Below, in pieces: positions 26,971 through 33,055 of a DNA stretch of 64,000 nt. The DNA comes from a virus: the IMG/VR virus record IMGVR_UViG_3300023198_000559, positions 1 to 64,000 of that record; one strand, written 5' to 3'. Position numbers and translations under genes: made by a program. Positions within the stretch are counted from its first letter, which is position 1, and each line of letters begins with the position of its first letter. The notes under the pieces were generated by a model. It worked only from the letters and a program-made list of their open reading frames with translations, did no database searches and had not been told where the DNA came from.

Positions 26971-27125
26971 TGGATATAATTTAAGTGAAACATTTATTTA
27001 GTAAAAGAATCAGATAGAGGCTATTGGGGCCTACTTCCGGAGCCAATATTCACTGTTTTATCTCTCAGTTCCCAATCTTATGGCATTCCATCAACAGAGG
27101 CTTTTGCGCGTGTCTGATTCTTTAG

Positions 27126-27514
27126 TGGAGATGCAGGGAGTCGAACCCTGGTCCACAATGTATTAAATACACATGATATACAAGTTTGTAGGGCCAGCTC
27201 AACTGCTGACGGTCCACCACTTAGTCTTTTTATGAACTAAGAAACACTCTCTAGTTGTTATCGTATATAAATATACAGTGAGATGCAGAGTATTCTCGTA
27301 CACGCTATTCTGTTTCTAGGTTAACGTAGAACCCAAGCACTCATGAAACCTAATTACTATTAAGCTGCAATACGCATCTCATACTGAGCTACAGGTGCAA
27401 TAGAAATAACTTTCGTTTCTCCATTTATTAAAGTGATACGTTTTTAATGTGTCTCATATCATCACATACTTGCATGTAGTACTGAATATCATCATGTCAA
27501 ATCCAGTCATCCCC
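27126..27514 (-). ncRNA. ssrA: tmRNA
   Basis: 5' GGGGATGACTGGATTTGAC; 3' GACCAGGGTTCGACTCCCTGCATCTCCA (G3:U70); tag frame ATAAAT-GGA...GCA GCT TAA TAG. Confidence 0.93.
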
Positions 27515-28419: not shown

Positions 28420-28797
28420 TTAATATCCTGTATACTGATTAGTATACTGTTTAATTAATTTCTTAAGCCATCTAACTCGAGGCTTAATAAGATATGGTTT
28501 GTAAAGAAATACACCAGTTGTAGTGATGTTCATCTCAATGTCACCATCAAAACTCTTGGGTGAATAGGTTATAAACTTATTATTAAGTCTATTTTGAATA
28601 AGAGTAAATAACATACTAGCTTGCATATCATTAATCTTACCTTCCCTTTTCATAGCATACACAGCAGTACATAGACCATCATATTTAGTTGGTCGTATAC
28701 TAGGATGTGTAAACTCTTGTAATAGTAATTCTAGTAATCTTCTCATGGTCATATTAGCTTGATTTAGTTTGTACATTGATTTAAATGACATCCCCAA
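28420..28797 (-). CDS. hypothetical protein (start uncertain)
   Basis: ORF. Confidence 0.6.
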   Translation of the reverse strand: MGMSFKSMYKLNQANMTMRRLLELLLQEFTHPSIRPTKYDGLCTAVYAMKREGKINDMQASMLFTLIQNRLNNKFITYSPKSFDGDIEMNITTTGVFLYKPYLIKPRVRWLKKLIKQYTNQYTGY

Positions 28798-28799
28798 GT

Positions 28800-30264
28800 A
28801 TTTTTACTCGGCTGTCCAAGTGCACTTGCGCTAAGACTGTGTTCTACTTGAGGATATTGTGCTGTATGGAGAGTCGAACTCCTAATATAGTATTCTAACT
28901 ACATTATGCCCAAATTACAGCGGTGATTAAGTTACAAGCTGAGAATGTGACTTGTATGTTATGATTATCTACCTTTTCAAGTATAATTCACACTTAGGTT
29001 TAACTAAGTACATAACATAGAGAGTTGATTACAACCATTTACTACTACTATTCATATAAACTTCAATTTCTGCAACCATCCTTGGAAGGACTCGCAGTGT
29101 TCCCACACTACTAGGTTAAACATACTTTATTCATTTCATCAAAGCTCCTTGCGGGTGCTAAGACAACTGTATCTTACAACAGTATAACTCTATTGTTGAA
29201 TAATAGTCTACAGGCGTTGGGCTTTTCGAGTTTAAGATGAGCTTATTCAGCTTCTTTCTTTTAGCGAAATATAGTGAGATACAAGACGTCGACTGTAGTC
29301 TACATGCATGCTACTCTTGCGAGCAGTTTAGCTTGTTACGCCTTGTTGTAAGTTATCAGCTTACGGTGGATTAAGATGCTACTACAAGAGCACACCCTAA
29401 TTACTGACCACAACACTAATAGATTGATATTCTATTTTGCATCGTACCCTACACAGTTCCCTATTGCTATTTCTAGCTCAACTCCAGTCACCACTGGAAT
29501 ATACTCTCAGGTATTAACCCATTGAATATGTTATATGCATGCTTACATGGATTGGTATCAGTCCTGACACCAACGCTCGTCACCTTATTTCGAAGAATGA
29601 CTTACTTTATACTCATCACTGAGTTTATCCTAAGGCTATAAGCAACCTTTTCTTAAATGCTTGGGAGCATAGTGTACACTACCTCCCTCGACCCTCCAGC
29701 GTAACCTGTACAAGCTATCTAGATAGGATTTCGGTCTTAAATATCTTAAGTTAATATATCTTACAGACAATTTGAGTTCTTGCCTATTATACTTTCAGTT
29801 ACAGGTGAAACCCTGCATCTCAATACTTTCCATAGCTACATACTATCCAACATGTATCGCCACCTATAGCAGGTAGACGTAGGTTTCGAACCTATACGTA
29901 GAAGATATATTAACTCTCAATTACTCTTAGTGAGTAATGAGTTTAATGCTTAGGTAAGTATCTGGTGCGCTAGATGTCTTAGTAGGGCGTATTCCCATAC
30001 CTTATACTTACCATTGTTACTCTTTAGTTGTACATAAGTCGTAACATCTTACGTTAGCACATTGCTTTTGTGTCCGGGTCTAGTGCTATCACAGGACTGC
30101 AGTTTTTAATCTCACGGCCAGAAATAGAGGCACGTTACCTCTACCAACAGACAATGGTGCTCCACAACCTAATCAACACTCTTCAGTGTCTTTTGAATGC
30201 TTCTATGCTACCAATGAATATTCCTACTGCTCGTACAGAGCGTTCCGTAGGTCCAACCTAGTAT
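28800..30264 (-). ncRNA. island of structured non-coding RNA(s)
   Basis: No credible ORF over ~1.46 kb; many hairpins with GNRA loops on the minus strand and long closing stems. Confidence 0.65.
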
Positions 30265-30471
30265 CTATACAAAATGAGGGACTGAACCATGTTCTTCCAG
30301 GTAGTCACTTATCATCTTGTCGGCTCTCTCTTGTAGTATGATGTCTACATCCTTTACTACTTTGAGTATCACACGATCCATAACCTTATCAGGACACTTA
30401 CCACTATTTATGGTAGCTGTCCTAATATGGTCAAGTTCGGAATTAGTAAATTGTTCTAAGAATCTCTTCAC
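30265..30471 (-). CDS. hypothetical protein
   Basis: ORF. Confidence 0.55.
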   Translation of the reverse strand: MKRFLEQFTNSELDHIRTATINSGKCPDKVMDRVILKVVKDVDIILQERADKMISDYLEEHGSVPHFV

Positions 30472-30740
30472 CTTCTTGTTCTTCTAAAGGTGCTTATTCT
30501 TGTAATTAATACAGAGTCTTGTACAAGTTTCATATTACCAGCTAAGGTAATAAGTGTTGTATCTGACTCATAGTACTGTAATATGCCTAAACGTTGTTCA
30601 TAGTCTATTACAGTATGAAATGCTACTTTAAGTAGCACTACGGGTTCTTTGGCTTTATATTTAGCCACTCTCTCACTCTTGGATGTACAAGCAGATGCTA
30701 ATGCAAGAGTAAGGATTAATATTACTAAAGTATTTCTCAT
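30468..30740 (-). CDS. putative lipoprotein
   Basis: Signal peptide with lipobox-like ASAC. Confidence 0.6.
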   Translation of the reverse strand: MRNTLVILILTLALASACTSKSERVAKYKAKEPVVLLKVAFHTVIDYEQRLGILQYYESDTTLITLAGNMKLVQDSVLITRISTFRRTRR

Positions 30741-30865: not shown

Positions 30866-31066
30866 TCATAATAGTTGTGGTGTAATTACTTTATCAAATT
30901 GTTCTTGAAGAGTTATATGAGTTACCTCATAAGCTGTCTCCTTGTAATGCTCTTTAATTAGCATGTCTAACTGACCAAGTGTATAGGCCAATAATAGTAG
31001 ATGCTCAGTTGTTATACTACGTTCTACTGTTACGAAGTATATCTTTATTTTAGTATTCTTATTCAT
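30866..31066 (-). CDS. hypothetical protein
   Basis: ORF. Confidence 0.55.
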   Translation of the reverse strand: MNKNTKIKIYFVTVERSITTEHLLLLAYTLGQLDMLIKEHYKETAYEVTHITLQEQFDKVITPQLL

Positions 31067-31623
31067 CTTTACGAAGTACTATTTGATTAAATAACTACTC
31101 AGACTTTCTGAATAGTAAATGTCTTTTGAGGCTATAGTATACTTACTACTTATAAGTAGTATAATAGAGAAAGTAGAGAAAGTATATAGTTTTACTGTGA
31201 GTCCTTCTCTCTCTCTAAGAGTTTATAGTCAAATAGTAAGTGTAAAGCTATGATGCCTCGCTATCACCTGAGAGGATATACCTGCTGCAACCATTAGCTT
31301 TACTTCTTCTTACTATTAATACCTATAGTCGTTACTCATACGCCATAGGTTATATATCTTGAGTTCTCTTCTGTCGTACTGTATTGGCATAGGACTTAGA
31401 AAAGAATTGAAATTCGCTATATACGAACATGGACAGTTCTAACAAGTGGCACACGAAGTCCACTTGCGTCTGAGACTGTAGAGGTTAGTCCACAATCATG
31501 AGCCCAGTTCGTGCATCGAACCATCGCCCATCGATTAATACCTTTCTCATAGTGATGAGGTTAGGGTGAAGAGGTGCACACTACTTCATCTGGTGAGTGT
31601 GCTTAACCAGTTGGTACATCAGG

Positions 31624-31869
31624 CTACAGAGTGAACTGTAGTGTAGCGCCTGTACCAGCGTTACAAAGGACTGCAGTACCGTCTTCGAAGACAGCAAACT
31701 GGGCCTCCTTAGTCTTATCGTAAGACTTGGAAACAGGTCCTTGCTCAGCACCACAGCTCCAGAAATCTCCTTTGCCTGCGTTGAGTACTCTTATTTCGTC
31801 AGAGTCAGCACGTCCCTTTAATTCACTTACTGTAAGCGAATAAGAAATCTTAGACTTTGTGTCTGCCAT
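31624..31869 (-). CDS. first gene of the leftward arm, hypothetical
   Basis: Clean ORF next to the strand switch. Confidence 0.75.
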   Translation of the reverse strand: MADTKSKISYSLTVSELKGRADSDEIRVLNAGKGDFWSCGAEQGPVSKSYDKTKEAQFAVFEDGTAVLCNAGTGATLQFTL

Positions 31870-32700
31870 TCTTAGGATTGCAGTTGGATTAACCCGACGG
31901 GGGTACCCAAGACTGCGAAATTAAGAGGGGGAGATTCGCTATATCACACCTACGCTTATACTCAGACAAACAATTTTCTAAAAATATTTTAAAAATTTTA
32001 CACGGTAGACTAATAAGGGTACAACACGGTAGACTAATTATGGTACGTAGTAAGGAAGTCAGGTTAAACCTGATCTACCTACTAAGAAACGCCAGGGGGT
32101 ACTGGCTTTAGGGTGTAGGAGATATCATGCATAAGGTATGAATCCGGGACTGTTTTGTATGATGTAGACGACATTCATGTCGCACATATTGTAATAATTT
32201 GAGCACAATACCGGTACAAGGTACTAATCTCTAAAAAGTACTAATAGAAATAAATGTCACAAATCCAGGTGTTAATAGAAGAAATTCCCTTTAACTGTCA
32301 CAAATCTACTAGTTAGTAGAAGATTTTGTCACAACTTGGACAGTAACTAGGACACAGTGTCCAAGTACTTTATACATATATGTATATAAAAAATGTACTA
32401 AAGTATACATTTATGTATAATAAGTACGTACGTGTATAAAGTCAACCTATATAGATACTAATTTCTAAAAGTCAACCTATGTGCTGACAAAAGCCCGGGA
32501 GTTGTCAGGGTAAGGCCTGCCTACTAAGTTTCAAGCAAATTGCGAGCGGTCCCATTCAATTACAAAGGACTCTAACCTCAACCGGGCATGCAAAGTTACT
32601 ACACCTTAAAGGATAAATATACGATTAAGTGAAAATAATTTAACAATAGTTTGGTAAGTTAATATAATGTATTAACTTTGTAGTACAATATATTATACTT
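31870..32700. repeat. strand-switch control region with direct repeats and palindromes (candidate origin or genome end)
   Basis: ACACGGTAGACTAAT x2, TGTCACAA x3, AAAGTCAACCTAT x2, TATACAT(A/T)TATGTATA x2. Confidence 0.6.
32650..32680 (+). promoter_or_regulatory. Bacteroidota-type promoter for the rightward arm
   Basis: TTTG-N19-TAACTTTG. Confidence 0.75.
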
Positions 32701-32722
32701 CAACTAATAACAACAACAAAAG

Positions 32723-33055
32723 ATGGAAATTACAATTAAAACAAAAGTTGGGACTGTAGTATTTGACAATCTCGAACCCGGGATGTCAATGGATATCAGC
32801 ATAAACCCTGGGCATCCTGTTAAGAAGGCTCGAGTTTCTGTGAGTCTTTATGGCTTCAGGTCTATTCAAGATGATCATTTTAGTGGAGGTACCGTTTCAG
32901 GTCACCGTTCTTTAGTAGATGATATGGTAAGAGTAGGCGTAGATATTGAGTATGAAACCTCTAAAGATCATGTTTACCTGTCAGACCAGGAGGTGCCTAT
33001 TAAGACTAAGAAGACTAAGTTCATAGACCTATCAACTTACAAAGTAAGCAAATGA
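32723..33055 (+). CDS. hypothetical protein
   Basis: ORF after promoter with CAA-rich leader. Confidence 0.7.
   Translation: MEITIKTKVGTVVFDNLEPGMSMDISINPGHPVKKARVSVSLYGFRSIQDDHFSGGTVSGHRSLVDDMVRVGVDIEYETSKDHVYLSDQEVPIKTKKTKFIDLSTYKVSK

What the first reader, a model, noticed from the sequence alone, without database searches (positions are those of the whole stretch)
29018..29748. Candidate large ornate ncRNA (~700 nt) in an ORF-free island
Seen: an otherwise dense genome keeps ~1.46 kb without credible ORFs. The minus strand shows GNRA-capped hairpins (GCTA-GAAA-TAGC, CTGCTC-GCAA-GAGTAG, CC-GCAA-GG, GTGT-GGGA-ACAC), stems TTGGTGTCA/TGATACCAA and TCCAGT/ACTGGA, and a domain closed by AGAGTT/AACTCT. 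Established: ROOL and GOLLD are phage-associated large RNAs of similar size, often near tRNAs. Inference: a member of these classes or a new one; boundaries are approximate.
Basis: partly seen in the sequence, partly recalled or inferred. Interest (0 to 1): 0.7.

Follow-up and report, generated by a model that had tools for sequence, protein, structure and literature searches.

The report
Divergent GOLLD RNA in marine phage
The gene-free stretch encodes a large folded RNA on the minus strand that is a distant relative of GOLLD, a known phage RNA that builds hollow RNA-only cages and whose job is unknown; here it sits in a marine crAss-like phage between two tRNA look-alikes instead of real tRNA genes.

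Summary
A short-range Rfam scan matches the whole GOLLD model (RF02032) at 29320-28936, minus strand: 45.6 bits, E 2.6e-10, far below the 150-bit cut-off. An equal-sized neighbouring control gave nothing better than E 0.054. A pseudoknot that covaries in seven canonical GOLLDs, and that the Rfam structure line shows as unpaired, forms here at the same position with six Watson-Crick pairs. Variants in marine metagenome contigs touch 10 model pairs: 6 double compensatory changes, 4 wobble switches, none broken. Chance would give 0.35 doubles and 10.5 broken pairs.

Most likely the RNA is about 813 nt (29748-28936). It lies inside a 1.33-kb RNA island and is followed 14 nt later by a D-arm-less tRNA look-alike, where canonical GOLLDs have a real tRNA. 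Most invariant GOLLD motifs are missing. The two loops that are self-pairing in the solved cage are instead complementary to each other here.

This is a divergent variant of a known family, not a new class. This scan has noted such GOLLD relatives in crAss-like phages many times on other DNA. No full-length relative and no RNA data could be retrieved.

The parts
28936..29320 (-). GOLLD-type conserved 3' domain. It comprises a first hairpin, an A-rich linker, a long-range helix, a three-way P21-like junction and the P22-P27-like hairpins.
   Evidence: Rfam RF02032 match over model positions 1-416 of 416, 45.6 bits, E 2.6e-10, minus strand only. The model gives 82 pairs, 9 of them G-U and 1 non-canonical. 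Variants from marine contigs keep all 10 affected pairs.
29044..29207 (-). Long-range helix (29207-29197 with 29054-29044, 11 bp). It encloses two hairpins and the P21-like junction, and matches the nested [[[ ]]] helix of the Rfam model.
   Evidence: No variant was listed in either strand.
29017..29193 (-). Pseudoknot AUAGAG (29193-29188) / CUCUAU (29022-29017), six Watson-Crick pairs.
   Evidence: At the same two positions, seven canonical GOLLDs have covarying 5-6-bp pairings (GGUGCU/AGCACU, GAUGCC/GGCAUU, GGCGGU/ACCGCU and others). The cmscan structure line shows these columns as unpaired. The chance of six pairs at a fixed place is about 0.003.
29078..29111 (-). Two adjacent hairpins in the P21-like junction: a 7-bp stem with loop GGGA (29111-29094) and a 4-bp stem with loop UUCCAA (29091-29078), joined by 2 nt. 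The loops are complementary to each other (UUCC/GGGA) and are not self-complementary.
   Evidence: The first stem shows 4 double compensatory changes plus one U-G to U-A change while its loop stays unchanged. The second stem shows G-U to A-U and a paired insertion.
29321..29748 (-). Probable variable 5' domain (428 nt) with about 13 hairpins, including GCUA-GAAA-UAGC and a 10-bp hairpin at 29574-29551.
   Evidence: Minus strand -117.9 kcal/mol, z -2.23; plus strand -86.9, z -0.45. Blocks 29155-29382 and 29500-29658 are kept in marine relatives, while 29383-29499 is replaced by 119 unlike letters of nearly the same length. Its length matches the 5' parts of env-38 (420 nt) and AM24 (412 nt).
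28860..28921 (-). D-arm-less tRNA look-alike starting 14 nt after the GOLLD 3' end. It has a 6-bp acceptor stem, a 6-7-bp arm with an 8-nt loop and a T-arm with loop UUCGACU. It is the probable RNase P/Z processing signal.
   Evidence: Fold z -3.64. It is conserved in L009, with a wholly different but still paired middle stem and two compensatory changes in the T-stem. It is not called as a tRNA by Rfam or standard ARAGORN, only by ARAGORN's mitochondrial mode.
29749..29915 (-). Module closed by a perfect 14-bp stem (29915-29902 / 29762-29749). It contains a consensus T-arm (29894-29880), a loop-capped 7-bp stem and a D-arm-like hairpin. It may be a permuted tRNA mimic and a 5' processing site. 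Its structure is uncertain.
   Evidence: The block is kept in marine relatives while its inner part 29803-29870 is replaced. The minimum-energy fold prefers a different long stem.
29916..30264 (-). Upstream ORF-free structured segment (about 350 nt). It could be a leader or a further RNA; whether it belongs to the GOLLD RNA is unknown.
   Evidence: It is part of the 950-nt minus-strand fold with z -2.46. Only 30014-30147 is kept in marine relatives.
30265..30471 (-). Upstream flanking gene (68 aa, no known family).
   Evidence: 45% identical to the gene in the same position in L009, 2243-2521. No Pfam or PHROG match.
28420..28797 (-). Downstream flanking gene. The product is probably 110 aa from a later ATG.
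   Evidence: Homolog at L009 1281-1652. Only one other relative was found among 5.8 billion proteins.

Best explanation
The island encodes a minus-strand, non-coding RNA of the GOLLD family. GOLLD is a class of giant phage RNAs that assemble into RNA-only cages and whose function is still unknown. The RNA has a conserved 3' domain (29320-28936) and a lineage-specific 5' domain (about 29748-29321), roughly 813 nt in all.

Shown: the RNA-level structure, the strand, and the homology of the 3' domain to GOLLD.

Inferred:
1. It is read as part of the leftward early transcript that starts near 32.3-32.6 kb, because no promoter-like site lies closer.
2. It is cut out of that transcript by host tRNA-processing enzymes. 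RNase P would cut at the 5' end of the tRNA look-alike 28921-28860, which gives the RNA's 3' end. The stem-closed tRNA-like module 29915-29749 would be cut by RNase III or RNase P/Z, which gives the 5' end.
3. It multimerises like the solved GOLLDs, but the two equatorial loops pair a-with-b' (GGGA with UUCC) instead of each pairing with itself. The subunit number may therefore differ from the solved cages.
For: - Rfam match: GOLLD over the full model, E 2.6e-10, on one strand only. The same loose scan on an equal-sized neighbouring stretch gave nothing better than E 0.054.
- Pseudoknot: a pairing that cmscan shows as unpaired columns covaries in 7 canonical GOLLDs, and it forms here with 6 Watson-Crick pairs in the same order: hairpin, pseudoknot strand, 6-nt helix strand, UAC.
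- Shared motifs: CGCAA loop, UAC...GUG hairpin, AUAAUC and the UCUCAG end.
- Covariation: of the 28 variant positions listed in the 3' domain from marine contigs, 16 lie in model pairs. They give 6 double compensatory changes, 4 wobble/Watson-Crick switches and 0 broken pairs. In 20,000 random trials the means were 0.35 and 10.5, and no trial reached the observed values.
- Strand: the wobble switches and 9 G-U pairs fit only the minus strand as RNA, and the folding energies are strongly asymmetric between strands.
- Context: the phage carries 14 tRNAs and a tmRNA. Canonical GOLLDs end about 10 nt before a tRNA gene; this one ends 14 nt before a conserved tRNA look-alike.
- Loops: the two junction hairpins are joined by only 2 nt, so their complementary loops could pair only between molecules (the steric point is inference).
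- Literature: the solved GOLLD cages and the role of L21a/L21b are described in PMC12286853 and PMC12990946.
Against: - The score is only 45.6 bits against a 150-bit cut-off; canonical phage GOLLDs score 150-216 bits.
- Most invariant GOLLD motifs are absent: the UCAAAAG loop of P14, GAAAG, CUAAU, both GAGUA motifs and GUGGAUAA.
- A model built from this sequence alone finds canonical GOLLDs only marginally, at E 0.63 and E 7, though at the right places. nhmmer finds no sequence similarity.
- The 3' domain has no significant folding z-score.
- The covariation comes from a few contigs of one study and from a truncated variant list. Two variants in the 5' domain break predicted closing pairs.
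- The closest relative, L009, has a different RNA in the same slot.
- The ends, the processing and the multimer are all inferred.
- Loop-loop complementarity of 4 nt has roughly a 6% chance of arising at random.
Confidence: 0.72

Rival explanations
1. The RNA is a separate class of large phage RNA, or a chimera, that keeps only a GOLLD-like 3' sub-architecture. It works as a monomer, for example as a scaffold or decoy, and does not form a cage.
For: It scores far below the family cut-off and lacks the loops that make the in-plane contacts in the solved cages, such as the L14 adenosines. The equatorial loops are not self-complementary. The ORF-free island is 1.33 kb, longer than any solved GOLLD.
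Against: The Rfam match spans the full model. The helix order is the same. The unscored pseudoknot sits at the homologous place. Stoichiometry already differs among accepted GOLLDs that lack some helices.
Confidence: 0.12
2. The island is an array of several independent small structured RNAs or processing cassettes, and the GOLLD-like part is only one unit. On this reading there is no ~0.8-1.3-kb RNA.
For: The island is modular. Conserved blocks alternate with replaced blocks in the marine relatives. It holds a module closed by a 14-bp stem and a tRNA-like element. L009 carries a different 475-nt structured RNA in the same slot.
Against: The GOLLD 3' domain alone is 385 nt, and solved GOLLDs need a 5' domain to cap the cage. 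The 428 nt upstream of it have the expected length and a strand-specific fold. Contigs of relatives bridge the 5' and 3' parts (records 12 and 18).
Confidence: 0.1
3. The region is not a functional RNA gene. It could be a structured untranslated spacer, a DNA-level element such as an origin or packaging site, or translated micro-ORFs.
For: No promoter-like or terminator-like site borders it. Small ORFs of 31-63 aa exist.
Against: The compensatory and wobble-specific changes are strand-specific, which argues for RNA. The Rfam match is significant. The small ORFs lack ATG starts and are cut by the conserved helices.
Confidence: 0.04

Closest known systems
GOLLD RNA env-38 (Rfam RF02032; 833 nt; cryo-EM 14-mer cage with D7 symmetry, PDB 9MEE; Kretsch et al. 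2025, PMC12286853)
   Same: - Marine origin.
- About 0.8 kb, with a variable 5' part of about 420 nt and a conserved 3' part of about 400 nt.
- The same order of helices in the 3' domain, including the long-range helix, a three-way junction with two hairpins, and the P22-P27-like hairpins.
- The CGCAA, AUAAUC and UCUCAG motifs.
- A phage context next to tRNA-type elements.
   Different: - It scores 45.6 bits, against 150 or more for accepted members.
- It lacks the A-rich L14 loop and most invariant junction motifs.
- L21a and L21b of env-38 are self-pairing loops that join the two cage halves. Here the two loops are GGGA and UUCCAA, complementary to each other and not to themselves.
- It is bordered by a tRNA look-alike rather than a Met-tRNA.
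Streptococcus agalactiae GOLLD (700 nt, 12-mer, PDB 9L0R; 3' domain alone mostly a 10-mer, 9LMF; reviewed in PMC12990946)
   Same: It shows that accepted family members can lack helices (P9, P11a-c, P21b) and then assemble with another subunit number. That is the precedent for a re-wired P21 region here.
   Different: Sag GOLLD still joins the two planes by a self-pairing L21-L21'' kiss and keeps the L14 contact. Neither is recognisable here.
Canonical GOLLDs of cultured phages (Acinetobacter phage AM24, Mycobacterium phage PegLeg, Vibrio phage PG07, Roseobacter phage DSS3P8, Caulobacter phage phiCbK and others)
   Same: They share the 6-bp pseudoknot beside GAAAG and after the P22-like hairpin. 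They also have a tRNA-type element about 10 nt after the 3' end.
   Different: Their flanking or embedded elements are real, decoding tRNA genes inside tRNA arrays. Here the array lies 24 kb away and the flanks are non-decoding mimics. None of the phages in the part of the published alignment that I could read is crAss-like.
ROOL RNA (Rfam RF03087)
   Same: It is a large ornate phage RNA found near tRNAs, and it forms cages.
   Different: No Rfam match at E<=10 on either strand. Its sequence and fold are unrelated.
tRNA-like processing signals (mascRNA at the 3' end of MALAT1; t-elements of plant mitochondria and haloarchaea). This comparison rests on my own knowledge.
   Same: A non-decoding tRNA mimic placed directly after a long non-coding RNA lets RNase P define that RNA's 3' end.
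   Different: Cleavage has not been shown here. The element lacks a D-arm, and it also precedes a protein-coding gene by about 60 nt.

Membership tests
GOLLD RNA (RF02032) | Score at or above Rfam's gathering cut-off (150 bits). | tested here: not met
   45.6 bits, E 2.6e-10 in a 1.9-kb scan. The match was lost altogether in the 64-kb scan and in the genome search. Seven canonical phage GOLLDs score 150.7-216.4 bits.
GOLLD RNA (RF02032) | Complete 3'-domain architecture in the right order: first hairpin, linker, long-range helix enclosing two hairpins and a three-way junction, then four further helices. | tested here: met
   The alignment covers model positions 1-416. The model gives 82 pairs with 1 non-canonical. 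One junction hairpin is placed differently from the cmscan alignment.
GOLLD RNA (RF02032) | Covarying pseudoknot between the 6 nt starting at the last G of GAAAG and the 6 nt after the P22-like hairpin. It is not part of the scored structure. | tested here: met
   It is present in 7 of 7 canonical sequences with different letters. The window has AUAGAG/CUCUAU, 6 Watson-Crick pairs, with about a 0.003 chance of arising at random.
GOLLD RNA (RF02032) | Invariant sequence motifs: UCAAAAG in L14, GAAAG, CUAAU, CGCAA, GAGUA (twice), GAGUGG, GUGGAUAA, GGGAA...AUAAUCC and GUAAUCUCAG. | tested here: not met
   Only CGCAA, UAC...GUG, AUAAUC and UCUCAG are kept. The others are absent or changed.
GOLLD RNA (RF02032) | Structure supported by compensatory changes among relatives. 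| tested here: met
   Six double compensatory changes, 4 wobble switches and 0 broken pairs among 10 affected pairs. No random trial of 20,000 reached this. The data come from a few contigs of one marine study only.
GOLLD RNA (RF02032) | Self-complementary L21a/L21b loops that join the two cage halves. | tested here: not met
   The loops are GGGA and UUCCAA. Neither is a palindrome, and they are complementary to each other as UUCC/GGGA.
GOLLD RNA (RF02032) | About 0.7-0.9 kb, with a variable 5' domain and a conserved 3' domain. | tested here: inconclusive
   It would be 813 nt if it runs from 29748 to 28936, between the two tRNA-like elements. The ORF-free island is 1.33 kb and the ends are not mapped.
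GOLLD RNA (RF02032) | Encoded by a phage or prophage, next to or containing tRNA genes. | tested here: met
   The record is a virus contig with terminase, portal and DNA polymerase genes. It holds a tmRNA 1.4 kb away and 14 tRNAs 24 kb away. The direct neighbours are tRNA look-alikes, not decoding tRNAs.
GOLLD RNA (RF02032) | Forms a closed homo-multimeric cage. | not testable with these tools
   No RNA 3D or assembly tool was available. This needs mass photometry or cryo-EM.
ROOL RNA / RNase P RNA / group I and II introns | A match to the family's covariance model. | tested here: not met
   No match at E<=10 in the loose scan of 28600-30500, both strands.
tRNA (for the element 28921-28860) | Cloverleaf with a D-arm and a 7-nt anticodon loop; recognised by the Rfam tRNA model or by ARAGORN. 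| tested here: not met
   No RF00005 match at E<=10. Standard ARAGORN finds nothing, even at lowered thresholds; only its mitochondrial mode calls it. It has no D-stem and an 8-nt loop.

The most novel reading that the evidence does not exclude
A GOLLD lineage of marine crAss-like phages has re-wired its cage. The two equatorial loops that pair with themselves in the solved structures have become a complementary a/b' pair, which would change how the two halves dock and perhaps the subunit number. The RNA is also no longer embedded among real tRNA genes. It is cut out of an early polycistronic transcript by non-decoding tRNA mimics that mark an exchangeable 'RNA slot', which holds an unrelated structured RNA in the closest relative.
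Probability: 0.3. Interest if true: 0.65.

Novelty: new variant of a known kind. Interest (0 to 1): 0.45.

Why it matters
GOLLD is one of the few natural RNAs known to build closed cages without protein, and nobody knows what it is for.

A divergent branch in crAss-like phages would widen the family to Bacteroidota phages. That group includes the most abundant gut phages and has cultured members.

This copy separates two things that usually occur together. It keeps tRNA-shaped neighbours although the real tRNA array is 24 kb away. That argues the link between GOLLD and tRNAs is about RNA processing, or about presenting a tRNA shape, and not about decoding.

The complementary loop pair gives a direct, cheap test of how the cage halves recognise each other: swap or compensate the loops.

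For annotation, such RNAs are missed by the Rfam cut-off, and even by loose scans of long stretches.

Tried and rejected
Searches for relatives
- Relatives through the flanking proteins: none in IMG/VR. Only one other protein was found among 5.8 billion, on a 1.8-kb contig.
- Relatives through DNA polymerase and terminase (L001-L012): no GOLLD by Rfam and none by my own model R1 with filters off. The 60-kb Rfam scans are weak negatives, because a 64-kb scan also loses the window's own hit.
- Exact-pattern scans for the RNA core in viral contigs, JGI metagenomes and GTDB genomes: only chance hits or none.
- A pattern for the tRNA look-alike found only the L009 contig again.
- blastn against GenBank phages: no match.
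- The genome search on the window's own record with RF02032: no match. That tool is too insensitive for this case.

Comparison with canonical GOLLDs
- Reciprocal test with the single-sequence model R1 on 8 canonical GOLLD loci: only marginal hits, E 0.63 and E 7, although at the true 3' ends.
- nhmmer of canonical GOLLDs, including their 5' parts, against the island: nothing.
- MAFFT alignments A2 and A4 of canonical sequences plus the window were too poor at the ends to use for pair counting or for a second model.

Expression and transcription signals
- No RNA holder was listed among the public sequencing runs.
- The Bacteroidota -7 motif TAnnTTTG is absent on the minus strand between 27678 and 32301 and is not enriched in the window. 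Sigma-70-like sites are no more frequent than in shuffled sequence. No repeated promoter-like word was found.

Other
- No Pfam or PHROG family matched any neighbouring small protein.
- I first read the [[[ ]]] helix as a pseudoknot that the model ignores and rejected that reading. It is a nested helix that the model scores, so it is not independent evidence.
Full report
**Where the window comes from.** The window is the first 64 kb of an 80-kb IMG/VR virus contig estimated to be 84% complete. It carries a family-A-type DNA polymerase, a large terminase and a portal protein. The best cultured match of the terminase is Cellulophaga phage phi14:2 at 32% identity. After that come uncultured human-gut crAss-like phages and the Flavobacterium FpV4-type phages. 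The virus is therefore a crAss-like phage whose host is probably a marine member of the Bacteroidota. The only public runs that hold parts of the stretch are labelled marine metagenomes. The contig has 14 tRNA genes at 1.2-5.4 kb and a tmRNA at 27125-27514, all on the minus strand.

**The observation.** Genes on the minus strand run without gaps down to 30265 and resume at 28797. Between them lie 1,467 nt with only short ORFs that have GTG or TTG starts or lie on the wrong strand. Folding is clearly asymmetric between the strands:
- 29321-30270: -269.7 kcal/mol (z -2.46) on the minus strand, -213.5 (z -0.61) on the plus strand.
- 29321-29748: z -2.23 on the minus strand, -0.45 on the plus strand.

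**What it is.** No Rfam family reaches its gathering threshold in the island. A loose scan of 28600-30500 matches the whole GOLLD model (positions 1-416) to 29320-28936 on the minus strand, at 45.6 bits and E 2.6e-10. ROOL, RNase P and intron models give nothing there. The same loose scan on the neighbouring 30900-32800 gives nothing better than E 0.054 and no GOLLD, so the match is not a by-product of composition or lax filters.

The aligned structure has the following parts:
- a first hairpin and an A-rich linker;
- an 11-bp long-range helix (29207-29197 / 29054-29044) enclosing two hairpins, one with the family's CGCAA loop;
- a three-way junction;
- a small hairpin;
- a 6-bp helix enclosing two further hairpins;
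- a terminal hairpin with the UCUCAG loop.

**An independent test of homology.** I fetched eight phage loci listed in the alignment published with the cryo-EM paper. Seven of them reach Rfam's cut-off, at 150.7-216.4 bits. In all seven, the six bases that begin at the last G of GAAAG pair with the six bases directly after the P22-like hairpin. The letters differ from phage to phage: GGUGCU/AGCACU, GAUGCC/GGCAUU, GGCGGU/ACCGCU, GGCAGU/ACUGCU and others. cmscan prints these columns as unpaired, so they add nothing to the score as pairs. In the window the homologous columns read AUAGAG and CUCUAU, six Watson-Crick pairs. They stand in the same order: hairpin strand, pseudoknot strand, six-base helix strand, then UAC. 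At a fixed position the chance of this is about 0.003.

**Covariation.** No full-length relative could be fetched. However, contigs from four runs of one marine study cover much of the island at 85-95% identity. I mapped the listed differences onto the Rfam-derived structure.
- Of 28 variant positions between 28933 and 29127, 16 fall in pairs.
- All 10 affected pairs stay paired: six by changes on both sides and four by wobble/Watson-Crick switches.
- Random placement gives on average 0.35 double changes that keep pairing and 10.5 broken pairs. None of 20,000 trials reached the observed values.
- The 7-bp hairpin 29111-29094 alone has four double changes, and its GGGA loop is untouched.
- Its neighbour gains one pair by two matching insertions.

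The wobble switches make sense only for RNA read from the minus strand. In the 5' part the picture is weaker: three changes to wobble pairs and two broken closing pairs. The variant list was truncated, showing 40 of 164, and comes from one study.

**Extent and surroundings.** In canonical phages the GOLLD 3' end lies about 10 nt before a tRNA gene, as in PegLeg and AM24. tRNAs may also sit upstream or inside the linker J13/15.

Here the 3' end is followed after 14 nt by a 62-nt element at 28921-28860. It has a 6-bp acceptor stem, a T-arm with the loop UUCGACU, a middle arm with an 8-nt loop and no D-arm (z -3.64). Neither Rfam nor standard ARAGORN calls it a tRNA.

The same element is present in the closest relative, L009, whose terminase is 89% identical. 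There the middle stem has entirely different letters but is still paired, and the T-stem has two compensatory changes.

Upstream, at 29915-29749, a perfect 14-bp stem encloses a consensus T-arm, a loop-capped 7-bp stem and a D-arm-like hairpin. The minimum-energy fold prefers another arrangement, so its tRNA-like reading remains a candidate.

Between the two elements lie 813 nt, of which 428 nt precede the conserved domain. That is close to env-38 (420 nt) and AM24 (412 nt). I therefore take 29748-28936 as the most likely GOLLD RNA and the 350 nt further upstream as a leader or a separate RNA.

No promoter-like site lies nearer than 32.3-32.6 kb on this strand. The RNA is thus probably released from a long early transcript. 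RNase P cutting at the tRNA look-alike is the simplest way to make its 3' end. This step is inferred.

**A variable slot.** In L009 both flanking genes and the tRNA look-alike are conserved. The RNA between them, however, is an unrelated 475-nt stretch that folds very well (z -4.0) and matches neither Rfam nor my model. The more distant relatives have no detectable copy. The GOLLD-type RNA is therefore accessory cargo in an exchangeable position.

**How it differs from known GOLLDs.**
- The score is a quarter of a typical one.
- The A-rich L14 loop, GAAAG, CUAAU, both GAGUA motifs and GUGGAUAA are missing.
- In env-38 the two cage halves are held by two self-pairing loops, L21a and L21b. Sag GOLLD lacks P21b and forms a 12-mer instead of a 14-mer.
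- Here the junction carries two hairpins with loops GGGA and UUCCAA. Neither is self-complementary, but UUCC pairs with GGGA.
- The hairpins are joined by two bases, so on steric grounds such a contact could form only between molecules. This is my inference.
- One marine variant changes the second loop but keeps three G-C pairs with the first.
- Four complementary bases alone have about a 6% chance of arising at random, so this point is a lead, not a result.

Earlier notes of this scan report the same re-coding in other crAss-like phages. I used them as a lead and saw the same thing here independently.

**Known or new.** GOLLD is a described family (Weinberg et al. 2009; Kretsch et al. 2025). 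The part of the published alignment that I could read contains no crAss-like phage. No listed paper in the library combines GOLLD with crAss terms, and none of the 12 listed of the 15 post-2025 papers that mention GOLLD concerns crAss-like phages. This scan, however, already holds 212 notes that mention GOLLD together with crAss, from at least 164 genomes, so within the scan this is a repeat. I classify it as a new variant of a known kind. It has two local twists: tRNA mimics in place of tRNAs, and an exchangeable slot.

**Limits.**
- No expression data.
- No full-length homologues.
- The ends are not mapped.
- Only part of the read-derived variant list was visible.

Noticed in passing
L009:1771-2245 (minus strand): In the closest relative, the same slot between the conserved flanking genes and the conserved tRNA look-alike holds an unrelated 475-nt ORF-free stretch. 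It folds with z -4.0 and has no Rfam match. It looks like a different structured RNA in an exchangeable position.
   Followed up: partly
window 29749-29915 (minus strand): A module closed by a perfect 14-bp stem contains a consensus T-arm (GGUUCGAAACC), a loop-capped 7-bp stem and a D-arm-like hairpin. It may be a circularly permuted tRNA mimic. Marine relatives keep its outer parts and replace the inner 68 nt. The minimum-energy fold disagrees with the tRNA-like reading.
   Followed up: partly
window 29916-30264 (minus strand): A further 350 nt of ORF-free, hairpin-rich sequence lies upstream of the tRNA-like module. Only 30014-30147 is kept in marine relatives. Its role is unknown: a leader, a separate RNA, or an extension of the GOLLD 5' domain.
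   Followed up: no
L024-L031 (seven canonical GOLLDs in GenBank phages): A covarying 6-bp pairing links the bases starting at the last G of GAAAG with the six bases after the P22-like hairpin. cmscan prints these columns as unpaired. It is useful as an extra membership test for divergent GOLLDs.
   Followed up: yes
window 27125-27514 (minus strand): A phage-encoded tmRNA (82.8 bits) has a long tag ending in AA followed by three stop codons. It lies 1.4 kb downstream of the RNA island. Its T-arm word GGUUCGACUCC is the same as in L009's tRNA look-alike.
   Followed up: no
window 31100-32700: This second ORF-poor stretch lies at the divergent early/late boundary, with GC up to 0.49. It holds two tandem near-repeats (32000-32046 and 32251-32323) and T-loop-like words at 31512 and 32567 on the minus strand. 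A loose Rfam scan found nothing.
   Followed up: partly
window 1-64000 compared with 28600-30500: A loose Rfam scan of the whole 64-kb window loses the GOLLD match that a 1.9-kb scan finds at E 2.6e-10. Negative scans of long stretches therefore say little about divergent GOLLDs.
   Followed up: yes
L002:18488-18749; L006:8269-8544: Distant relatives found through the DNA polymerase carry a group I intron (82.8 bits) and a permuted tmRNA (66.9 bits).
   Followed up: no
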